Shown here piece after piece: positions 7,826 through 16,352 of a stretch of DNA of 16,352 bases. Where the stretch lies: assembly GCA_051294375.1 (NCBI GenBank), contig JBJCIZ010001081.1:1-16352 (forward strand), read 5' to 3'. Both the position numbers and the translations under genes were made by a program. The notes under the pieces are model-generated. The model ran no database searches and was not told the origin of the DNA. It saw only the letters and a program-made list of their open reading frames with translations. Positions within the stretch are counted from its first letter, which is position 1. Every line of letters starts with the position of its first letter. Origin of the DNA: Paraspadella gotoi. Taxonomy: Eukaryota > Animalia > Chaetognatha.

Positions 7826-8034
7826 TGTGCCACCGACAACCTTCAAATCTCGATCAAGATTCTCTCTCTTCAACTGGTTCAGTTATTTCAACCACTTGTC
7901 CCTCACGTGTCCTTACCTTTTGTCCTGTAAATAGTCAGACGTAGTATTGTTATTGTTATCGCTTTGTTACTGTTGGAGAATACAAAAATCATTCTCGATC
8001 TGAACCTTCGTCCTCGTTAACATCTAATGCCACA
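7826..8034 (+). repeat. 5' LTR (~209 bp, TGTG...CACA)
   Basis: Starts TGTGCCACCG and ends TGCCACA, followed at once by the PBS. Homologous to 15951-15989 (direct) and 16183-16351 (inverted). Confidence 0.88.
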
Positions 8035-8048: not shown

Positions 8049-8230
8049 AAAAAGAAATAAAGCCCAAAAATCATTTTTCTCCCTAATAAAACTAAAGTCC
8101 AAATCTTAAAGCAAAATAAACTTTTCTCTACACGTGTCTACCCAAACCCCGCAATCTGGATACTAAAACTAGCTGGATTTTCCGACCTCGCCCGTCTACA
8201 CCTGCTGACGAAGAAGAAGAGGTTTCTAAC

Positions 8231-9319
8231 ATGCCCATCACCAGAAGCGCTTCAAAATCCGACGCCGCCGGCGCGGACGAGACGTTCCAAGACGCCGACG
8301 CTCCACCAATGACTATGGAGACAATGGCCGATGCTATACTGGCAATGCAAAGGCAAATAACGGAAATGTTGGCGAAAATAAATTCTCCCCAAACAAACTC
8401 AAGCCTAACATCAACGAATCTGCCGGCCATGGTTGAAGAAGATGCTGACAGCGCTCCTGTTTCACATGACGCCGGCCTTCCTCGTCCGCGGACGCCGAAG
8501 CTGCCAACCTTCGACGCCGACAACATTGAGGATTGGATCCTGGCGGCAGACACTGCTTTTGAGGTGGCCGACGTCCATGATGAGCGCACCAAAAAAGCTC
8601 ACGCCCTCGCGGCAATCCCGACGGAACGTCACCGCCACCTTGACTTAACAATACGCCAGGACAAATCCCCCGGGGCTTACGCCCGTCTTACAGCCCATCT
8701 CCGAAACATCTACGGCGATGCCAAGCCCCAGAGAGCGGCCAAACTTCTCAGGATGACTTCCTTAAAAGGGAGTACCCCTCTCCAACATCTTGCTGCCTTG
8801 AAAACGCAAGCTCAAGGCCTGACCGTTGACGACCTCATCCGGGCTCTTCTGGTTTCTTCTCTACCGGTCTCTGTCCGAGACCATGTCCTCAACAATGAGA
8901 GCTCCCTTGACGATGTGGCCAAGACTGCCAACAACTTCTACACTCCTGCAGGGAACCTGCGTAATCAGGCCACACCCGGCGTGGTTAATGCAGTTACATT
9001 CACCACCAATCCTGTTGCAGAGGAACTGGACGAGACCATCGCGCCTCCAGAGGAGTTTTTGGATGATGATGCAGCTGCTCCTACTTCATATGCCAACGCA
9101 GTCAAACGAACTTATTCTAGACCGCCACTTCGCCTACGTAATCAACAGCAAGCCCGACCACATCGCCAAAACGACTCACCAAGTTACTTTCGCAGCCGAA
9201 ACCCTCTTCCATATGGTGAGAAGAAGTGCGTCTATCACTTTGTCTATGGCTCCAAGGCGATAAAATGCGACGGCCCTCCCTGCCCAATGGCGTCAAACGG
9301 AAACGCCGGCGGCCGCTAG
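8231..9319 (+). CDS. gag: Gag (362 aa) with C-terminal CHCC motif
   Basis: Intact ORF after the PBS; KLPTF...W capsid-like start; CVYHFVYGSKAIKCDGPPC = C-X2-H-X9-C-X4-C at 9227-9283. Confidence 0.92.
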   Translation: MPITRSASKSDAAGADETFQDADAPPMTMETMADAILAMQRQITEMLAKINSPQTNSSLTSTNLPAMVEEDADSAPVSHDAGLPRPRTPKLPTFDADNIEDWILAADTAFEVADVHDERTKKAHALAAIPTERHRHLDLTIRQDKSPGAYARLTAHLRNIYGDAKPQRAAKLLRMTSLKGSTPLQHLAALKTQAQGLTVDDLIRALLVSSLPVSVRDHVLNNESSLDDVAKTANNFYTPAGNLRNQATPGVVNAVTFTTNPVAEELDETIAPPEEFLDDDAAAPTSYANAVKRTYSRPPLRLRNQQQARPHRQNDSPSYFRSRNPLPYGEKKCVYHFVYGSKAIKCDGPPCPMASNGNAGGR

Positions 9320-9336
9320 TCGCCCGCGTCGCCGGC
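9298..9336 (+). promoter_or_regulatory. Putative -1 ribosomal frameshift signal
   Basis: pol is in the -1 frame relative to gag. C_GGA_AAC (9298-9304) is in gag codon phase and is followed by the stem GCCGGCGGC (9305-9313)/GTCGCCGGC (9328-9336). Confidence 0.65.
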
Positions 9337-12300
9337 CGAAATTCTTCTAATCTTTTCTTCCTGCGCGACCCAGATGCTGGCGTGGAGTGGCTGGTCGACG
9401 GTGGCTCGGAGGCAACTCTATTACCTGCAACCAACTCCGACCGCGCAAAGGCGGCAACCGATCCAGCCGCCGTCAAAGCAGCTCTCGCAGCAGCAAAATT
9501 CCCAACACTCCACGCCGCAAACGACACACCCATCGAAATTTATGGCATCAAGGATATGCAAATCCGCTTAGGCAACCGAACTTACCCATACACTGTCGCA
9601 ATCGCAGATGTTGCCACGCCAATCCTTGGTGCAGATTTTTTGATGGAGTTCCACCTTGGCGTCGACCACCGTCGACGCCTCCTGCTCGACTTAGACGACT
9701 TCACAGTCATCACTGGCCACCCGGGAAAGTCCACTCCCACTCCTCCTCGCGTCCACCTCGCTCGTGACGCATACTCTGCTTTACTAGACGAACGGCCAGA
9801 ACTCACCAAACTAGTCTTTAATTCAGCACCACCCAAACATGGTGTCGAACACCAAATCCCAACAAAAGGCCCACCTGTTCACGCCCGCGCCCGACGCCTT
9901 GCTCCCGACCAACTGGCTGCTGCCAAGGCAGAATTCCAAAAAATGGAAGAGCTTGGAATAATCCGTCGTTCAACATCATCCTGGGCCTCTCCACTCCACG
10001 TTGTCCGCAAGCCTGATGGCTCTTTAAGGCCGTGCGGCGACTATCGACGTCTCAATTGTGCTACAATAGATGACCGCTACCCAATTCGTCACTTACTAGA
10101 TTTCAATGCGGATGTAGCAGGAAAAACTGTCTTCTCAAAAATCGATCTCTGTAAGGGATACCATCAAATCCCTGTAACGAAAGAGGACCGACACAAGACG
10201 GCAATCATCACGCCGTTTGGCTTGTGGGAATTCAATTTCATGCCATTCGGCTTGAAAAACGCCGCACAAGATTTTCAACGAATGATGGATAGGGTCCTCA
10301 ATGGAATTCCACACGTGTTTGTCTATTTGGACGACCTCCTCGTGGCATCAAACTCACATGAGGAACACCTTGAAGACCTCAAGAGAGTCTTCAACACACT
10401 TGCCGACAACGGTCTTGTGGTCAATCGTGCCAAATGTGTGTTCGGCGCATCAAGCTTGGAATTCCTGGGATATCAAGTCAATTGCCATGGCGTCAGTCCC
10501 CTTCCATCAAAAGTTGATGCAATACGCAACATGGCCACGCCCACATCCACCAAGGAGCTTCAACGCTTTATAGGCATGGTCAACTACTATCGCCGCTTCG
10601 TTCCGCACGCCGCCGAGCACATGGCACCACTCTTGGAACTCCTCAGTGGAAAACGCCGAACGTTTTCATGGGAAGCAAAGCAGGATATAGCTTTCCAAAC
10701 AATCAAAGATGCCTTGGCTGATGCAACCATGTTAGTCCACCCAGTTGATGGCGCTCCTCTCTCCCTCACTGTCGATGCTTCCGACATCGCGGTTGGCGCC
10801 GTCCTGGAGCAATCCGTCAACTCTTCATGGCAGCCCCTTGGGTTTTTCTCCAAGCGCCTCAAGCCGGCTCAACAAAAGTGGCCTCCATTTGACAAGGAAC
10901 TCCTTGCAGCTCACAGCGCCATCCGCCACTTCCGGCCCTACATTGAAGGTCGACGGTTCACTTTGTTTAGTGATCATATATCACTAGTCCCAGCGCTCCG
11001 TAAAAAGGCAGAACCGCACACAATGCGGCAAACTTATCAGCTTGCCGGTATAGCAGAGTTCACAGGCGACATCCGACACATTGCGGGAAAAGCCAATGTC
11101 GTCGCGGACACCCTCTCACGACCCTCCGCGGAAACACCCCCAACAACTCCAGAAAAATCATCAGAGCCAGATGCTACCAATAAGCGCGCTAAGGACGATG
11201 TAATCGCATCAGTCAATGCAATTGGCTCCCTCAGTGTGAACCTGGAAGCAATGGCAGCAGACCAGGCAACAGACAACGACGTCCAAGACCTTCTCAACAA
11301 TCACCAAACTGGGCTAGAACTAAAAACGATCCTCATCGGAAACGCTCCTCTCATTTGCGACACTTCCGGTACGCGCGCGCGTCCTCTCGTCCCAGCAAAC
11401 TGGCGCCGCCGTATATTCGAAGCAACCCATAACGTTGGCCACCCTGGAATTAAGGCATCCAAAAGCCTTGTTTCAAAAAGGTTCGTCTGGCCCTCTGTTT
11501 CCAGTGACGTTGGCCGGTGGGCGGCCGCCTGTGACGCCTGCCAACGCGCCAAAATACAACGTCATATTCGAACGCCTCTACAGCAGTTTGAGCCTCCCTC
11601 ACGGCGCTTCGCCCACATCCACGTGGACCTCGTTGGCCCACTCCCCCCCGCCTCAGGACACACCCACCTCCTGACAATCATTGACCGTTTCACAAGGTGG
11701 CCGGAAGTAGCGCCACTTCGTGATACATCCGCGGCATCAATAGCCAACGCCTTCCTTCTATACTGGGTTTCACGCTTTGGGGTCCCCGCCGTCGTAACTA
11801 CTGATCGAGGAGCACAATTTACCTCGGAACTGTGGCGCCAAGTGGCCGCAGTAGTAGGTTTTGATCCAGCAACCACCACAGCATACCATCCTCAATCAAA
11901 TGGCATGGTAGAAAGACTGCACCGGACGCTCAAGTCGTCTCTCAGAGCAAAATGCGACGCCGCCGGTGAAAATTGGCTGAAGCAACTCCCTTGGACTCTT
12001 CTTAGTCTCCGAGCCACGCCCCGCGACGACTCCAATATCTCACCCGCCGAGCTCACACTAGGGGAAACGTTAACACTCCCGGGACAACTCCTCCCAACGC
12101 CGTCAACTGACGTCGACATCGCTGAACGAAACAAAATCGTAGAGGAGCTCCGTCAAGACGTCGCGCTATTGCAGCCTCTTCCGGCCGCGTGGCACACCTC
12201 CCCAACCGCCCACGTCCCAGACTCGCTCGCCGACGCCAGCCGCGTATACATACGACGCGATGGCCATTCAACGCCGCTACAACCACCTTATGACGGGCCT

Positions 12301-12489
12301 TATATCATCGTCGAAAAAGGCGAGAAAACATTTAAAATCGAAATACCGGGACGAGGAATAGAAACAATATCTGTCGACCGTCTAAAGCCGGCAGTCCTTG
12401 ACACAGAACGCCCTCCACCAACTCCTCCTCAAGCACCACGCCGAGGGCGACCACGCATCATCTCAATCCCACAAATCGTTCCCCCACCC
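9298..12489 (+). CDS. pol: Pol polyprotein (protease, RT, RNase H, integrase); main part of ORF 9226..12648, whose last 53 codons (incl. stop) are read-through into the insertion
   Basis: PR LVDGGSE and ILGADFL; RT WASPL, RPCGDYRRLN, IDLCKGYHQI, MPFGLKNA, YLDD (10324-10335); RH VDAS, DKELLA, SDH, NVVADTLSR; IN H-X3-H...CDAC, HVDLVGP, TTDRG, NGMVERLH, YDGPY. Confidence 0.96.
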
Positions 12490-13176
12490 CACAATGTTAT
12501 AATTTTGAAAAAGGGCCTCCAGGTTTACGCCACTGCTCTTCCTCGGTCCGCCTATCTCGTACACAATGTTATATTTGAAAAAGGGCCTCCAGGTAACGCC
12601 CTGCTCTTCCTCTCGTCCGCTATCTCGTACACCAATGTTATATTTTGAAAAAGGGCCTCCAGGGAATTGCCTGCTCCTTCCTCCGTTCCCTATCTCTACA
12701 CAATGTTATATTTTGAAAAAGGCCTCCAGGTTTAACGCCCTGCTCCTCCTCCGTCCGCCTATCCGTAGCACAATGTTATATTTTGAAAAAGGAGCTCCAG
12801 GTTAACGCCCTGCTCCTTCCTCCGTCCGCCTATCTCGTACACAATGTTATATTTTTTGAAAAGGCCTCCAGTTACGCCCTGCTCTTCCTCCGTCCGCCTA
12901 TCTCGTACACAATGTATATTTTGAAAAAGGGCCTCCAGTTAATGCCCTGCTCCTTCCTCCGTCCGCCTATCTCGTACACAATGTTATACTTGAAAAAGGC
13001 CTCCAGTTAACGCCTGCTCCTTCCTCCGTCCGCCATACTCGTACACAATGTTATATTTGAAAGGGCCTCAGCGTAACGCCCATGCTCTTCCTCCGTCCGC
13101 CTTCTCGTACACAATGTTATATTTTGAAAAAGCCTCCAGGTTAACGCCCTGCTCCTTCCTCCGTCCGCCCTACTCT
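12490..13176 (+). repeat. Tandem array of 10 units of ~70 bp, each a copy of the transposon left end
   Basis: Units start at 12490, 12562, 12630, 12699, 12769, 12840, 12908, 12977, 13044, 13110. Consensus by eye CACAATGTTATATTTTGAAAAAGG(G)CCTCCAGGTTAACGCCCTGCTCCTTCCTCCGTCCGCCTATCTCGTA. Confidence 0.95.
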
Positions 13177-13606
13177 CTCTTCCTGTGTCGTCCTTTTGGC
13201 AATGGTTATGGATCATGCCAACATCACACCCACCCCGATTGTATCACCAATTTATCATTACAATATACTCTAGAAATATTTAATCTTTTACTTTTTAGTT
13301 TGAATAATAATGACATCAATCCTAATAAAACTAGAATATTTATATCATTCAGACATAACTTTGTATTGTATTTCTAAGGCATAATTTTTGTTTTTCGCTA
13401 TTAAATCTTTATCAAATATTTTTAAGAAATAGATATTAAAGCTAAATATGCAATAAGACTCACTTTTTGCTTGGTCCCTGGATGGATCACTAATTGTCCA
13501 TTTCTCTTATTTCCACATTCGTCAGGTTAACTCTCAGAATTATTAAATATTGTAAAATATAAGATCGGACAAAAAAATCTAAAAGAATAGGATCGAGCCT
13601 CCTTCA

Positions 13607-13840
13607 ATAATAACAAATATTGATGCGATTATAACCAAAGGATTGATGCGATGATACCAAATGATTGATGCATGATAACAAATATTGATGCGATTGATAA
13701 CCAAAAAAAATAATTGATGTGATGATAACATTAATTGATGCGATGATAACCAAATGATCGATGTGATGATAACCAATATGATTGATGTGTAATAACCAAA
13801 TGGTTGATGCGATGATAGTCATTCATTGATGTGATGATTA
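13607..13840. repeat. Minisatellite, about 10 copies of ~22-23 bp (ATTGATGCGATGATAACCAAATG)
   Basis: Directly visible recurrence of TTGATG(C/T)GATGATAAC. Confidence 0.88.
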
Positions 13841-13880
13841 CATTCATCATAAATAAAACAAACAAATACGTGTATGAGTG

Positions 13881-13892
13881 AAAGAGGAGAGA

Positions 13893-13928
<36 letters not shown>

Positions 13929-14190
13929 AGAGAGAAGAGAGAGAGAAAGAAAGAGAATAATCCAAGAAAATCTCGGATGTAAATTTGGATTTTGTATTGA
14001 GAAAATGAATAAATGGCGATAATAAAAGTTTTCAGAAAAGAAAAAAATAATCAGAATTTTTTACAAAACAACGATGCACGCAAAATCGTACAGAGAGAGA
14101 GAGAAAGACAGAGAGATAGAGAGAGAGAAGAGAGAGACGAGAGAAGAGAGAGAAGAAGAGACAGAGAGAGAGAGAAGAAAGAGAGAAACA
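13881..14190. repeat. (AG)n microsatellite tracts (13881-13955, 14092-14190)
   Basis: Directly visible. Confidence 0.88.
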
Positions 14191-14559
14191 TCAGACACAA
14201 ACGTTGTCATGGTGGATGAAACAACAGACAACGATGACGCGAAGACTATAAAACGATGACATTGAAGACAATGTGGAAGAAGAGATACAACAAGAGAAAA
14301 CGACAAAGCAGAAGACATTGAGAAGAGGATGAGAAAAGAGGAAAAGAAAAGGACAATGACAGAAACGATGCGACTTTAAGACGACAAATATCGCAAAACT
14401 TATAAAAACAAGAAACCGTAATTCAAAATGTGTTGCGCCGCAGTAACTCCTTATACACGTGTATCTCATCGTGACATGACATGACGTACATGACCTTACG
14501 TGACATGACATAAAACTGAGTCGGTGCAGGCAGGCCAGATTCCCCCATGTTTATATTTT

Positions 14560-15420
14560 TTTAATTTCGGATATCTGATGGGTTTACTGGTTGGGCTTGT
14601 TACTCATTAAAACAGTAAAACGCAAAAAATTCGCTTCAACCCTACATCAATGTAATCTCGGGCAAAGCTGTTAAACCTAATTTCTTCCCTTTTATAAGAA
14701 ACCTCATTAAACCAAACCTCATCAAAGTAAAAAAAAAAAAATTGGAAAAAATAGAAAACCCTACAGTGTTTGAAATTTGAATGTCTTTCTTTTTTATTTT
14801 GGGAGTAGTTTCATTGCCAAAGCTTGTTTCTCCCTTAAAAACTCAAAATCGCTAAAATCCGCATTAACCTCGAATGTCTCTGGAACCTGATGTGAACCTG
14901 TAAACCTGACAATGATACTAAGTTTAGGATAAAACCTGGGTAAACGAAGATATATAGAAAGTCGATCAAAGAAAAATATGAAAAACCTAGTTCTTTCTTT
15001 GTTATTTTCGATGATTGACTTATTAACTGGTGAGCGTTATATTTTCTTTCTTAAAACTCAAAAACCGCTTAAATCCGCTACAGACCGTAATAGCCAAAAC
15101 CTAGTACTAACTAATAAAACTATTGTCCAATTTTTAATATGATAAACCTGAGTAAACGAGTAACTACAAAAAAAAATTTCAATTTCAGGAACGTAGTTAA
15201 TTTCTGATATATTTTGAATCCATTTCATAATTTAGTACCTCATTGGCAAAAAATCAATTCTCTCTTAATTTTATGAATCGCTATTAATCGCATTAACTGA
15301 GGATCAAGGAAACCTTTCTTGACCTAAGAAACCCATAGATATTGTCAGATGTGATAAACCTGGGTAAACGAGTGACCTATAGTAAAAAATTGTTTTTGTA
15401 ATTTTTAAAGGAAAAATATG
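14560..15420. repeat. Degenerate ~213-bp tandem repeat, 3-4 copies, towards the right end of the insertion
   Basis: AAACCTG(G/A)GTAAACGA at 14932, 15144, 15356 (212-bp spacing); CTTAA...CGCT...CGC motif at 14834, 15050, 15264 and more weakly at 14605. Confidence 0.75.
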
Positions 15421-15783
15421 TTGGACTAATATAAGTAAAAAATATATTACTATGTTAGAAAAAAAAGATACGCATTTGGACTTTTGGATATGATAAAAGG
15501 TGAGACGTCTAGCTTTCTAACGCCGTATCATTTATTACAATTGACAATGATATTAGAAAATGACAGGTAGAATAAGAAAAAGTTTTTTATTTTAGAGAAG
15601 CTAAAAGAGAGGTCGAAAGATAAGAAAGAAAGTTACGAATTTTTCGAATCTTTTTTTGGGTCAAAATCCCCGCAAGACCATTCACTTGTCATTAAAACTA
15701 TTGAAATCGAATTCGGTGACTGACCTTTTTCGCTCCTTCTGAAATTTTTATTTTTTCCTGGAGGCATGTATCAGCGTGCACCC

Positions 15784-15912
15784 CCACCCGCCACTCCCTC
15801 AACCATCAAGATTATGGAAAGACAAACGAGAGCGATCCCCAATCTCGTAAACATCCTTCCGTCGATGTTACAACCGCCAAATGACAAGGAAGACGATCAA
15901 CTGTTCTCATAG
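15784..15912 (+). CDS. pol: Displaced C-terminal tail of pol (42 codons plus TAG)
   Basis: Joined to 12489 it continues in frame: ...PQIVPPP|PPATPSTIKIMERQTRAIPNLVNILPSMLQPPNDKEDDQLFS*, ending just before the PPT. Confidence 0.75.
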   Translation, partial: PPATPSTIKIMERQTRAIPNLVNILPSMLQPPNDKEDDQLFS

Positions 15913-15950: not shown

Positions 15951-15989
15951 TGTGGCACCGCAACCTTCAAATCTCGATCAAGATTCTCT
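15951..15989 (+). repeat. 3' LTR, first 39 bp only
   Basis: TGTGGCACCGCAACCTTCAAATCTCGATCAAGATTCTCT matches 7826-7865. TGTGGCA is the inverted repeat of the LTR-terminal TGCCACA. Confidence 0.88.
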
Positions 15990-16182
15990 AGAGAGAGAAT
16001 CCGTCAGTCCGTGCACTTTAAGCAAAAACACACGCCAATTACTCGTGATTGGTGGATGGATTCTGAATAAATTTTTGTGTGTGAGTTAGGGAAGTGTGTG
16101 ATTGAGTTGGATTATGACAGTTTCGTATGGTAATCGTCCGAGTGAAATGAGCTTTAAATGGAAAAAAACAAAAAATATATTT

Positions 16183-16351
16183 TGTGGGCATTGATTGTTA
16201 ACGAGAACGAAGGTTCAGATCGAGAATGATTTGTTACATTCTCCAGCAGTAACAAGCGATTAACAATAACAATACTACGTCTGACTATTTACAGGACATA
16301 AAGTAAGGACACGTGAGGACAAGTGTTGAATAACTGAACCTAGTTGAAGAG
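16183..16351 (-). repeat. Inverted LTR segment equivalent to 7866-8034
   Basis: Reverse complement aligns with the 5' LTR at roughly 90% by eye (e.g. TGTCCTGTAAATAGTCAGACGTAGTATTGTTATTGTT, ATCATTCTCGATCTGAACCTTCG). Not followed by a PBS; runs to the window edge. Confidence 0.92.
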
Positions 16352-16352
16352 T

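What the first reader, a model, noticed from the sequence alone, without database searches (positions are those of the whole stretch)
12485..15783. Transib/RAG-like element with RSS-like heptamer-spacer-9-mer ends and a one-helical-turn spacer asymmetry
Seen: the left end is CACAATG (12490-12496), a spacer, then GCCTCCAGG (12515-12523). The right end on the minus strand is CACGCTG (15778-15772), ATACAT, then GCCTCCAGG (15765-15757). The right spacer is 6 bp. The left spacer is 18 bp in the terminal unit and mostly 15-17 bp in its tandem copies (range 14-18, homopolymer indels). The insert has a GC-rich 5-bp TSD, CACCC. Known: 5-bp TSDs and CAC-initiated, CACAGTG-like heptamers define Transib and RAG-like transposons, the ancestors of RAG1/RSS, and 12/23 RSS spacers differ by 11 bp. 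Inference: a family whose ends are not simple TIRs but asymmetric bipartite signals with a roughly 6/17 rule and a GC-rich 9-mer unlike ACAAAAACC. I cannot tell whether it is already described.
Basis: partly seen in the sequence, partly recalled or inferred. Interest (0 to 1): 0.85.

Follow-up and report, generated by a model that had tools for sequence, protein, structure and literature searches.

The report
Gene-less transposon with one-turn-unequal ends
A 3.3-kb gene-less jumping element sits inside a retrotransposon gene, with a 5-base footprint and two ends that carry the same 9-base motif 6 and 17 bases behind the first seven; it is likely moved by a Transib/RAG1-type enzyme, and such unequal ends are already in print, so it is an ordinary new member apart from its long end being repeated ten times in a row.

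Summary
Observation confirmed, novelty mostly not. A 3,289-bp element (12490-15778) interrupts a Gypsy pol gene, flanked by CACCC. Its ends share CAC, 9 of the first 13 bases and GCCTCCAGG. Short-read contigs correct the terminal left spacer from 18 to 17 and confirm 6 on the right, an 11-bp difference. They also show other flanks at the left tip and the Gypsy flank without the element, so this is a multi-copy family. No transposase remnant was found (0 of 47 ORFs), and no genome was held to look for a partner, so Transib/RAGL membership rests on the ends and one TSD. The architecture is in print: 12/23-like Transib ends (2005); ctenophore PbaTransib_0868, whose second block lies 6 and 16 bp behind the heptamer; GC-rich second blocks in ProtoRAG and AanRAGL. 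The less ordinary part is that the complete 71-bp long end is tandemly repeated (10 copies here; tandem junctions in contigs of both studies). The scan has noted asymmetric Transib-like ends in other genomes but not this family. Two unchecked notes report CAC ends with 5-bp TSDs on P-like elements, a live rival. New member of a known kind; interest 0.28.

The parts
12485..12489 (+). Left copy of the 5-bp target duplication CACCC
   Evidence: the only perfect direct repeat among 2-12 bp at these boundaries
12490..12496 (+). Left tip, heptamer CACAATG, identical to the published Transib consensus heptamer
   Evidence: other copies begin here with unrelated flanks (X4 record 10 and loose ends)
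12497..12514 (+). Left spacer: 18 bp in the window, 17 bp in contigs. The first 6 bp resemble the right spacer; the rest is an 11-bp T/A-tract insert
12515..12523 (+). Shared 9-mer GCCTCCAGG, long end
   Evidence: contig consensus of 32 X4 contigs, agreement 0.98
12490..13169 (+). Tandem array of about 10 copies of the complete left end (66-72 bp each in the window, 71 bp by X5 record 19); every unit starts at the heptamer
   Evidence: tandem junction also in X5 record 19 and X6 record 22
13170..15756 (.). AT-rich non-coding interior (29-37% GC), no transposase remnant found
13607..13847 (.). Internal 22-bp tandem repeat, about 10 copies
13883..14186 (.). Two (GA)n microsatellites, of the kind found throughout the window
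14790..15400 (.). Three diverged repeats 212 bp apart near the right end, with a conserved 16-bp core (14932, 15144, 15356)
15757..15765 (-). Shared 9-mer GCCTCCAGG, short end; followed inward by an A-tract
15766..15771 (-). Right spacer, 6 bp (ATACAT)
   Evidence: X2 record 7 and X5 record 23 without change here
15772..15778 (-). Right tip, heptamer CACGCTG
   Evidence: depth collapses beyond it in 3 of 4 runs and falls more than 20-fold in the fourth
15779..15783 (+). Right copy of the 5-bp target duplication CACCC
   Evidence: X4 record 16 (Gypsy) matches from exactly 15779 and carries 23 other letters before it
9220..12489 (+). Host: Ty3/Gypsy pol (RT, RNase H, integrase) upstream of the insertion
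15784..15912 (+). Host: last codons and stop of the interrupted pol, in the same window frame as the upstream part
   Evidence: related Gypsy contigs encode a similar peptide in this frame (loose ends, read by eye)

Best explanation
This is one copy of a multi-copy, gene-less DNA transposon family whose two ends share a CAC-tipped 13-bp block and a GC-rich 9-mer set 11 bp further in on the left than on the right, and it is likely moved in trans by a Transib/RAG1-type transposase that would bind one long and one short end. By analogy with HzTransib, ProtoRAG and RAG (established knowledge, not tested here), the enzyme would nick and hairpin next to each CAC and insert with a 5-bp stagger into GC-rich DNA, here a C-rich stretch near the 3' end of a young Gypsy pol gene. 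The 11-bp insert would keep the 9-mer on the same helical face at both ends, as the 12/23 spacers do. The first 70-71 bp of the long end have been duplicated head to tail, probably by an insertion into another copy's end followed by unequal exchange (inferred). The outermost unit served as the end in this insertion (shown by the duplication); whether inner units can be cut is unknown.
For: Ends and duplication in sequence. 9-mer not chance, about 0.5%. Spacers 17 and 6 in contigs. Multi-copy with sharp boundaries: beyond the right tip depth goes 1153 to 0 (X2), 69 to 0 (X5), 127 to 0 (X6) and 12256 to 552 (X4); 2 X4 contigs have different flanks directly before 12490, agreement 0.67, and 1 X5 contig from 12488. 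TSD length: the pol parts on both sides lie in the same window frame, which fits 2, 5, 8 or 11 bp, and only 5 is a perfect repeat. Left heptamer equals the Transib consensus, and 5-bp GC-rich TSDs are Transib/RAG traits. PbaTransib_0868 has the second block starting at position 14 of the short end, as here, and at 24 of the long end against 25 here (supplement text, counted by eye).
Against: No transposase in the element (0 of 47 ORFs reach a Pfam cut-off) and no partner could be sought. Only one complete TSD pair was seen; the other copies show one end only. The long end lacks the AA at positions 34-35 that marks the 21 insect Transib families (it has TT there, AA at 36-37). The 9-mer matches no published block well: 5 of 9 to ProtoRAG TR5, and only positions 2-3 of the critical 2-5 and 7-8. 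CA..TG termini with 2-5 bp TSDs are shared across the CMCT clade, and hAT5 also makes 5-bp TSDs. Two unchecked notes report CAC ends with 5-bp TSDs on P-like elements. No loose-end row at the right tip was among the 22 of 51 rows shown.
Confidence: 0.65

Rival explanations
1. It is a Transib/RAGL-type element, but the enzyme reads only the terminal 13-17 bp, and the 11-bp offset is an inherited indel without function.
For: ProtoRAG needs mainly its first 16-17 bp, and invertebrate RAGL enzymes are proposed to be insensitive to asymmetry. The first 13 bp match 9 of 13 between the ends. One founder copy can fix any indel in a non-autonomous family.
Against: The 9-mer is identical at both ends although the tips differ at 4 of 13 positions. 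The offset is one helical turn, and a 9-11 bp offset recurs in independent published families. ProtoRAG prefers unlike end pairs and needs its inner 9-mer for precise recombination.
Confidence: 0.17
2. The element is moved by a transposase of another group (P-like, Chapaev or another CMCT lineage), and the RSS likeness is convergent.
For: CA..TG termini with 2-5 bp TSDs are general in the CMCT clade. Notes e1-9944638 and e1-7275726 report P-like gene fragments inside CAC-tipped, 5-bp-TSD elements (unchecked, not tested here). No coding remnant ties this family to RAG1.
Against: TSD lengths of 2, 3 and 4 bp do not fit; EnSpm makes 3 bp and Chapaev 4 bp (recalled). The exact Transib heptamer and a layout nearly equal to PbaTransib_0868 point to Transib. 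A paper search for a P-like group with 5-bp TSDs and CAC termini found 0 papers.
Confidence: 0.15
3. The pattern is accidental: a 71-bp satellite and unrelated DNA were joined into a Gypsy copy by recombination or misassembly.
For: The window has many indel errors against contigs (table 4). The target is low-complexity C-rich DNA. No listed contig bridges either junction of this very insertion, and the host's 3' LTR is rearranged.
Against: Both boundaries are seen independently in contigs. The inverted ends share CAC, 9 of 13 bases and a 9-mer. The duplication length fits the pol phase.
Confidence: 0.03

Closest known systems
Ctenophore Transibs PbaTransib_0868 and MleTransib_3931 (Tao et al. 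2022, PMC9435367, Supplementary Data 2; probably Subgroup I, figure not seen)
   Same: CAC heptamer, 5-bp TSD (Pba), a terminal 12-13 bp block, then a second block 6 bp behind the heptamer at the short end and 16 bp at the long end; a 10-bp offset in both elements (counted by eye)
   Different: Second block is GATGCTATATTAGG-like, not GCCTCCAGG; offset 10, not 11; they carry transposase genes; no tandem array of the long end seen in the passages read
Transib5 (Drosophila melanogaster), Transib2_AG, TransibN1-N3_AG (Kapitonov and Jurka 2005, PMC1131882)
   Same: Consensus heptamer CACAATG, GC-rich 5-bp TSD, non-autonomous members, 12/23-like unequal ends. The right end here reads as heptamer + 12 bp + AGGAAAAAA
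   Different: Their second block is an A-rich nonamer, and the short end is given as 5'. Here the shared block is GC-rich, and the long end has AGGTTAACG at the RSS23 nonamer position
AanRAGL of Aureococcus anophagefferens (PMC9435367)
   Same: 13-bp terminal element plus a C-rich second element beginning CCTC, unequal spacers (4/13), 5-bp TSD
   Different: Encodes RAG1L and RAG2L; offset 9 bp; different 13-bp block
ProtoRAG of Branchiostoma (PMC8289069) and PflRAGL-A (PMC10462144)
   Same: CAC heptamer plus an inner 9-mer; ProtoRAG TR5 is GC-rich (GCCATCTTG); PflRAGL-A has a 10-bp asymmetry
   Different: ProtoRAG spacers are 27/31; the PflRAGL-A nonamer is AT-rich; both encode RAG1L and RAG2L; the protostome RAGL AAA at positions 8-10 is absent here
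TIR-derived satellites, e.g. Tetris TIR-220 of Drosophila virilis and Xmix/Xstir of Xenopus (review PMC9659126)
   Same: Tandem repeats born from a DNA transposon's terminal region
   Different: Here the unit is the whole recognition end and starts exactly at the terminal C

Membership tests
Transib superfamily | 5-bp target site duplication | tested here: met
   CACCC/CACCC; only perfect repeat in phase with the split pol. One site only.
Transib superfamily | GC-rich target | tested here: met
   CACCC, 4 of 5 G/C; the one other single flank seen (X5) also ends GC-rich
Transib superfamily | CAC at positions 1-3 of both ends, CACAATG-like heptamer | tested here: met
   CACAATG (7 of 7) and CACGCTG (5 of 7)
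Transib superfamily | RAG1-core-like DDE transposase, in cis or in trans | not testable with these tools
   None in cis: 0 of 47 ORFs of 30 aa or more (47 of 55 listed were sent). No genome held for a partner search.
Insect-type Transib TIR consensus (21 families, 2005) | A-rich nonamer with AA at positions 34-35 of the long end (11 earlier at a short end) | tested here: not met
   Short end has A23 A24 (met); long end has T34 T35, then A36 A37. Not filed with these families.
Subgroup I Transib (Tao 2022) | Asymmetric bipartite TIRs | tested here: met
   6/17 here; 6/16 in PbaTransib_0868
Subgroup I Transib (Tao 2022) | Transposase with alpha11-alpha12 region and CTT1, and its place in the tree | not testable with these tools
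   No transposase available
RAGL transposons (ProtoRAG, RAGL-A/B, AanRAGL) | RAG1L plus RAG2L gene pair between the TIRs | tested here: not met
   No coding remnant in this copy; an autonomous partner could still carry them
Protostome RAGL | AAA at TIR positions 8-10 | tested here: not met
   TTA left, ATA right
ProtoRAG | TR5 GCCATCTTG at 27/31 bp | tested here: not met
   5 of 9 identity, spacers 6/17
EnSpm/CACTA and Chapaev | CAC..GTG termini with 2-4 bp TSD (EnSpm 3 bp; Chapaev 4 bp, recalled) | tested here: not met
   Termini fit, but 2-, 3- and 4-bp duplications do not exist at these boundaries
P-like elements with CAC ends (unpublished scan notes) | P-type transposase fragment | tested here: inconclusive
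   No THAP or P-type hit in 47 ORFs; absence in a gene-less copy decides nothing

The most novel reading that the evidence does not exclude
The array is a natural 'many long signals, one short signal' substrate, like V segments facing one J: the partner transposase would pair the single short end with any of the ten long-end units. Each excision would carry off a variable number of units and leave the rest behind as the seed of a 71-bp satellite, so a selfish RAG-type element would spread and grow its own signal arrays under a one-turn rule with a GC-rich second block.
Probability: 0.12. Interest if true: 0.65.

Novelty: new member of a known kind. Interest (0 to 1): 0.28.

Why it matters
It adds one more animal lineage (likely an arrow worm by an unchecked scan note, not tested here) in which a Transib/RAG-type element has ends that differ by one helical turn. 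This supports the published view that the asymmetry behind the 12/23 rule is old and widespread and that the second block's sequence is free to change. It changes no conclusion by itself. It would matter more if the partner enzyme were found and shown to enforce 6/17 through a GC-rich block, or to choose among the tandem long ends, because that would be a simple natural model of signal choice in an RSS array.

Tried and rejected
No host genome was held, so copies could not be aligned end to end and no partner transposase was sought. Collection scans: right-end motif, 0 hits in metagenome contigs. Left-end motif, 9 hits, all in 53-61% GC, probably bacterial DNA with no blastn similarity to the element, and most are copies of a few loci: chance. 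Degenerate bipartite motif, 16 hits in viral contigs; 0 of 16 had a partner end with a TSD or any blastn similarity: chance. Left-unit motif, 0 hits in prokaryote genomes. Pfam: 7 of 47 interior ORFs had weak hits (best E 0.046), none at cut-off and none a transposase. Rfam: 0 hits in the window. No notable hairpin in either end (z -1.5 and -0.4). No convincing nested element in the interior (1 weak candidate). The ungapped inverted-repeat finder did not list the end pair among its 25 longest, as expected for ends offset by an indel. The sequencing-run shares were small (0.09-0.15) and were used only after laying. The very high summed depth of the unit in X2 and X4 (over 100,000) was not taken as a copy number: overlapping short contigs are summed and the library types are not on record, so free satellite arrays are not shown. 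Earlier scan notes held nothing on this family. An RSS reading with a shared A-rich nonamer was considered and rejected for the long end.
Full report
1. What is in the window. The window is eukaryotic DNA rich in microsatellites. It holds a Ty3/Gypsy retrotransposon: 5' LTR from about 7826, a gag frame at 8120-9319 and a pol frame from 9220 with RT, RNase H and integrase domains. Near the 3' end of pol lies a 3,289-bp insert, 12490-15778, between two copies of CACCC. No genome is held for the window. A scan note suggests an arrow-worm host (e1-10588733); I did not test this.

2. The ends. Left: CACAATG, a spacer, GCCTCCAGG. Right, on the minus strand: CACGCTG, ATACAT, GCCTCCAGG. The first 13 bases match at 9 positions without gaps; then the left end has 11 extra bases before the shared 9-mer. 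The 9-mer occurs 6 times in the window (5 in the left array, 1 at the right tip) against 0.09 expected. A shared 9-mer between two 40-mers arose in 111 of 20,000 shuffles and in 81 and 65 of 12,950 real window 40-mers.

3. Contig evidence. Eight public runs of one coded organism, from two studies, hold small shares of the element; four of the eight were laid. The window carries many indel errors against them (table 4). At the left end, base 12501 is missing in contigs holding 3816 of 4173 depth (X4) and 455 of 486 (X2), and X5 record 19 and X6 record 22 read 17 bp between heptamer and 9-mer. So the true spacer is 17 and the spread of 15-18 in the window is probably largely error. At the right end, X2 record 7 and X5 record 23 match the 9-mer and the 6-bp spacer unchanged but stop at 15773. 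Boundaries: beyond the right tip depth falls from 1153, 69 and 127 to 0 in X2, X5 and X6, and from 12256 to 552 in X4. There a Gypsy contig matches from exactly 15779 and has 23 other letters before it. At the left tip, 2 X4 contigs carry different flanks directly before 12490 (agreement 0.67) and 1 X5 contig does so from 12488 (17 of 30 loose-end rows shown). No row at the right tip was among the 22 of 51 shown. The element is therefore a multi-copy family with these boundaries, but no second complete TSD pair was seen, and no listed contig bridges this particular insertion.

4. TSD length. The target is low-complexity, so I tested lengths 1-12. Only 1 and 5 are perfect direct repeats. The pol parts on both sides lie in the same window frame, which fits 2, 5, 8 or 11 bp. 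That the downstream frame is the real pol tail is backed by related Gypsy contigs in X2, X5 and X6, whose loose ends encode a similar M-L-Q/H-P-P-D/N peptide with synonymous changes (read by eye). Five is the only length that meets both tests.

5. Interior. It is 29-37% GC, with a 22-bp tandem repeat, two (GA)n tracts and three diverged repeats 212 bp apart near the right end. Of 55 ORFs of 30 aa or more, 47 were scanned; left out were one short frame in the array, two microsatellite frames and five frames that run across the right junction into the flank. None reached a Pfam cut-off and none hit a transposase. Rfam found nothing. The element is non-autonomous.

6. The array. The whole left end, 71 bp by X5 record 19, is repeated about ten times, each unit starting at the heptamer. 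The tandem junction is also in contigs of both studies: X6 record 22 has 31 or more letters on each side of it, X5 record 19 has 16 on one side, and X2 and X4 have many short ones. In X2 and X4, 157 and 240 contigs lie on 176 bp, against 39 and 45 on 686 bp of the right end. Single-unit versions exist too: X4 record 12 goes from one unit into a different interior, and record 10 leaves the unit at 12557. Summed depths cannot be read as copy numbers, so free satellite arrays are not shown. Inner heptamers are preceded by TA; T/A-rich flanks lower RAG activity (passage), a weak point against their use.

7. Mechanism. Shown: ends, offset, boundaries, multi-copy state, one TSD. From established knowledge: Transib, ProtoRAG and RAG cut by nick and hairpin next to CAC and make 5-bp, GC-rich TSDs. 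Inferred: a Transib/RAG1-type enzyme in trans binds one long and one short end, with the 9-mer kept on the same helical face by the 11-bp insert (0.65). Rivals: the asymmetry is an idle indel (0.17); the enzyme belongs to another group (0.15); artefact (0.03).

8. Comparison with what is known. Kapitonov and Jurka 2005 (PMC1131882; passages and section 9, figure 4 not seen) give CACAATG as the Transib consensus heptamer and name five families with RSS12- and RSS23-like ends. Yakovenko 2021 (PMC8355894; passages) repeats this. Tao 2022 (PMC9435367; main-text passages, part 1 of 25 of the supplement and keyword passages, 60 of 69 'TIR' places, figures not held) states that all Subgroup I Transibs have asymmetric TIRs and that AanRAGL has a 13-bp element and a CCTCAAYAYG element 4 and 13 bp apart. 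In its supplement PbaTransib_0868 has its second block 6 bp behind the heptamer at one end and 16 bp at the other, and MleTransib_3931 also has a 10-bp offset (counted by eye). ProtoRAG has a GC-rich 9-mer that is needed for precise recombination (PMC8289069; passages and section 7). PflRAGL-A has a 10-bp asymmetry (PMC10462144; passages). Protostome RAGL TIRs have AAA at 8-10, absent here (PMC7204232; passages). CA..TG termini with 2-5 bp TSDs are general in the CMCT clade (PMC12730594; passages). Satellites from transposon ends are known (PMC9659126; passages). In RSS register the short end reads heptamer + 12 + AGGAAAAAA and the long end heptamer + 23 + AGGTTAACG, so 6/17 and 12/23 are the same offset, but only the short end has an A-rich nonamer.

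9. Membership and novelty. It works like an asymmetric Transib and meets the end and TSD criteria of the superfamily. It fails the insect-type nonamer consensus at the long end and the RAGL-specific features, and the transposase criterion could not be tested, so the filing is provisional. I found no paper on this family or on Transib in chaetognaths (no mention in the main text of PMC12460157, passages; its supplements were not seen) and none on a tandem array of a Transib end (listings only). Repbase and Dfam were not searchable, and subscription papers are missing. The scan has noted similar asymmetric ends in other genomes but not this family. Verdict: new member of a known kind, interest 0.28. 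The boldest reading left open is that the array offers the enzyme a choice of long ends and seeds satellites (probability 0.12, interest 0.65).

Noticed in passing
window 15951-16352 versus 7826-8031: The host Gypsy's 3' LTR is rearranged: 15951-15989 is a direct copy of 7826-7865, then after about 200 bp of other DNA 16187-16351 is an inverted copy of 7866-8031. It looks like a local inversion with a break in a TC/GA tract; real or an assembly error is open.
   Followed up: partly
window 8120-12489: The host Gypsy has open gag (399 aa frame) and pol frames that overlap as for a -1 frameshift, and X4 contigs match both flanks without change, so the host copy and hence the insertion are probably young. 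In X2, X5 and X6 this Gypsy is absent or barely covered.
   Followed up: partly
window 12490-12575: The 71-bp end unit is far deeper and more diverse in the two laid runs of one study (X2, X4) than in the two of the other (X5, X6), whereas the right end differs much less. This could be array expansion in some populations or an effect of library type.
   Followed up: no
X4 record 12 (12502-12560): A 448-letter contig goes from a single left unit into an interior that shares only about 8 bases with the window's interior: a second subfamily or possibly the autonomous partner.
   Followed up: no
window 14790-15400: Three diverged units 212 bp apart with a conserved 16-bp core near the short end; possible host-factor or transposase binding sites.
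   Followed up: partly
window 14470-14511: Short 14-bp tandem repeat (about 3 copies) inside the element.
   Followed up: no
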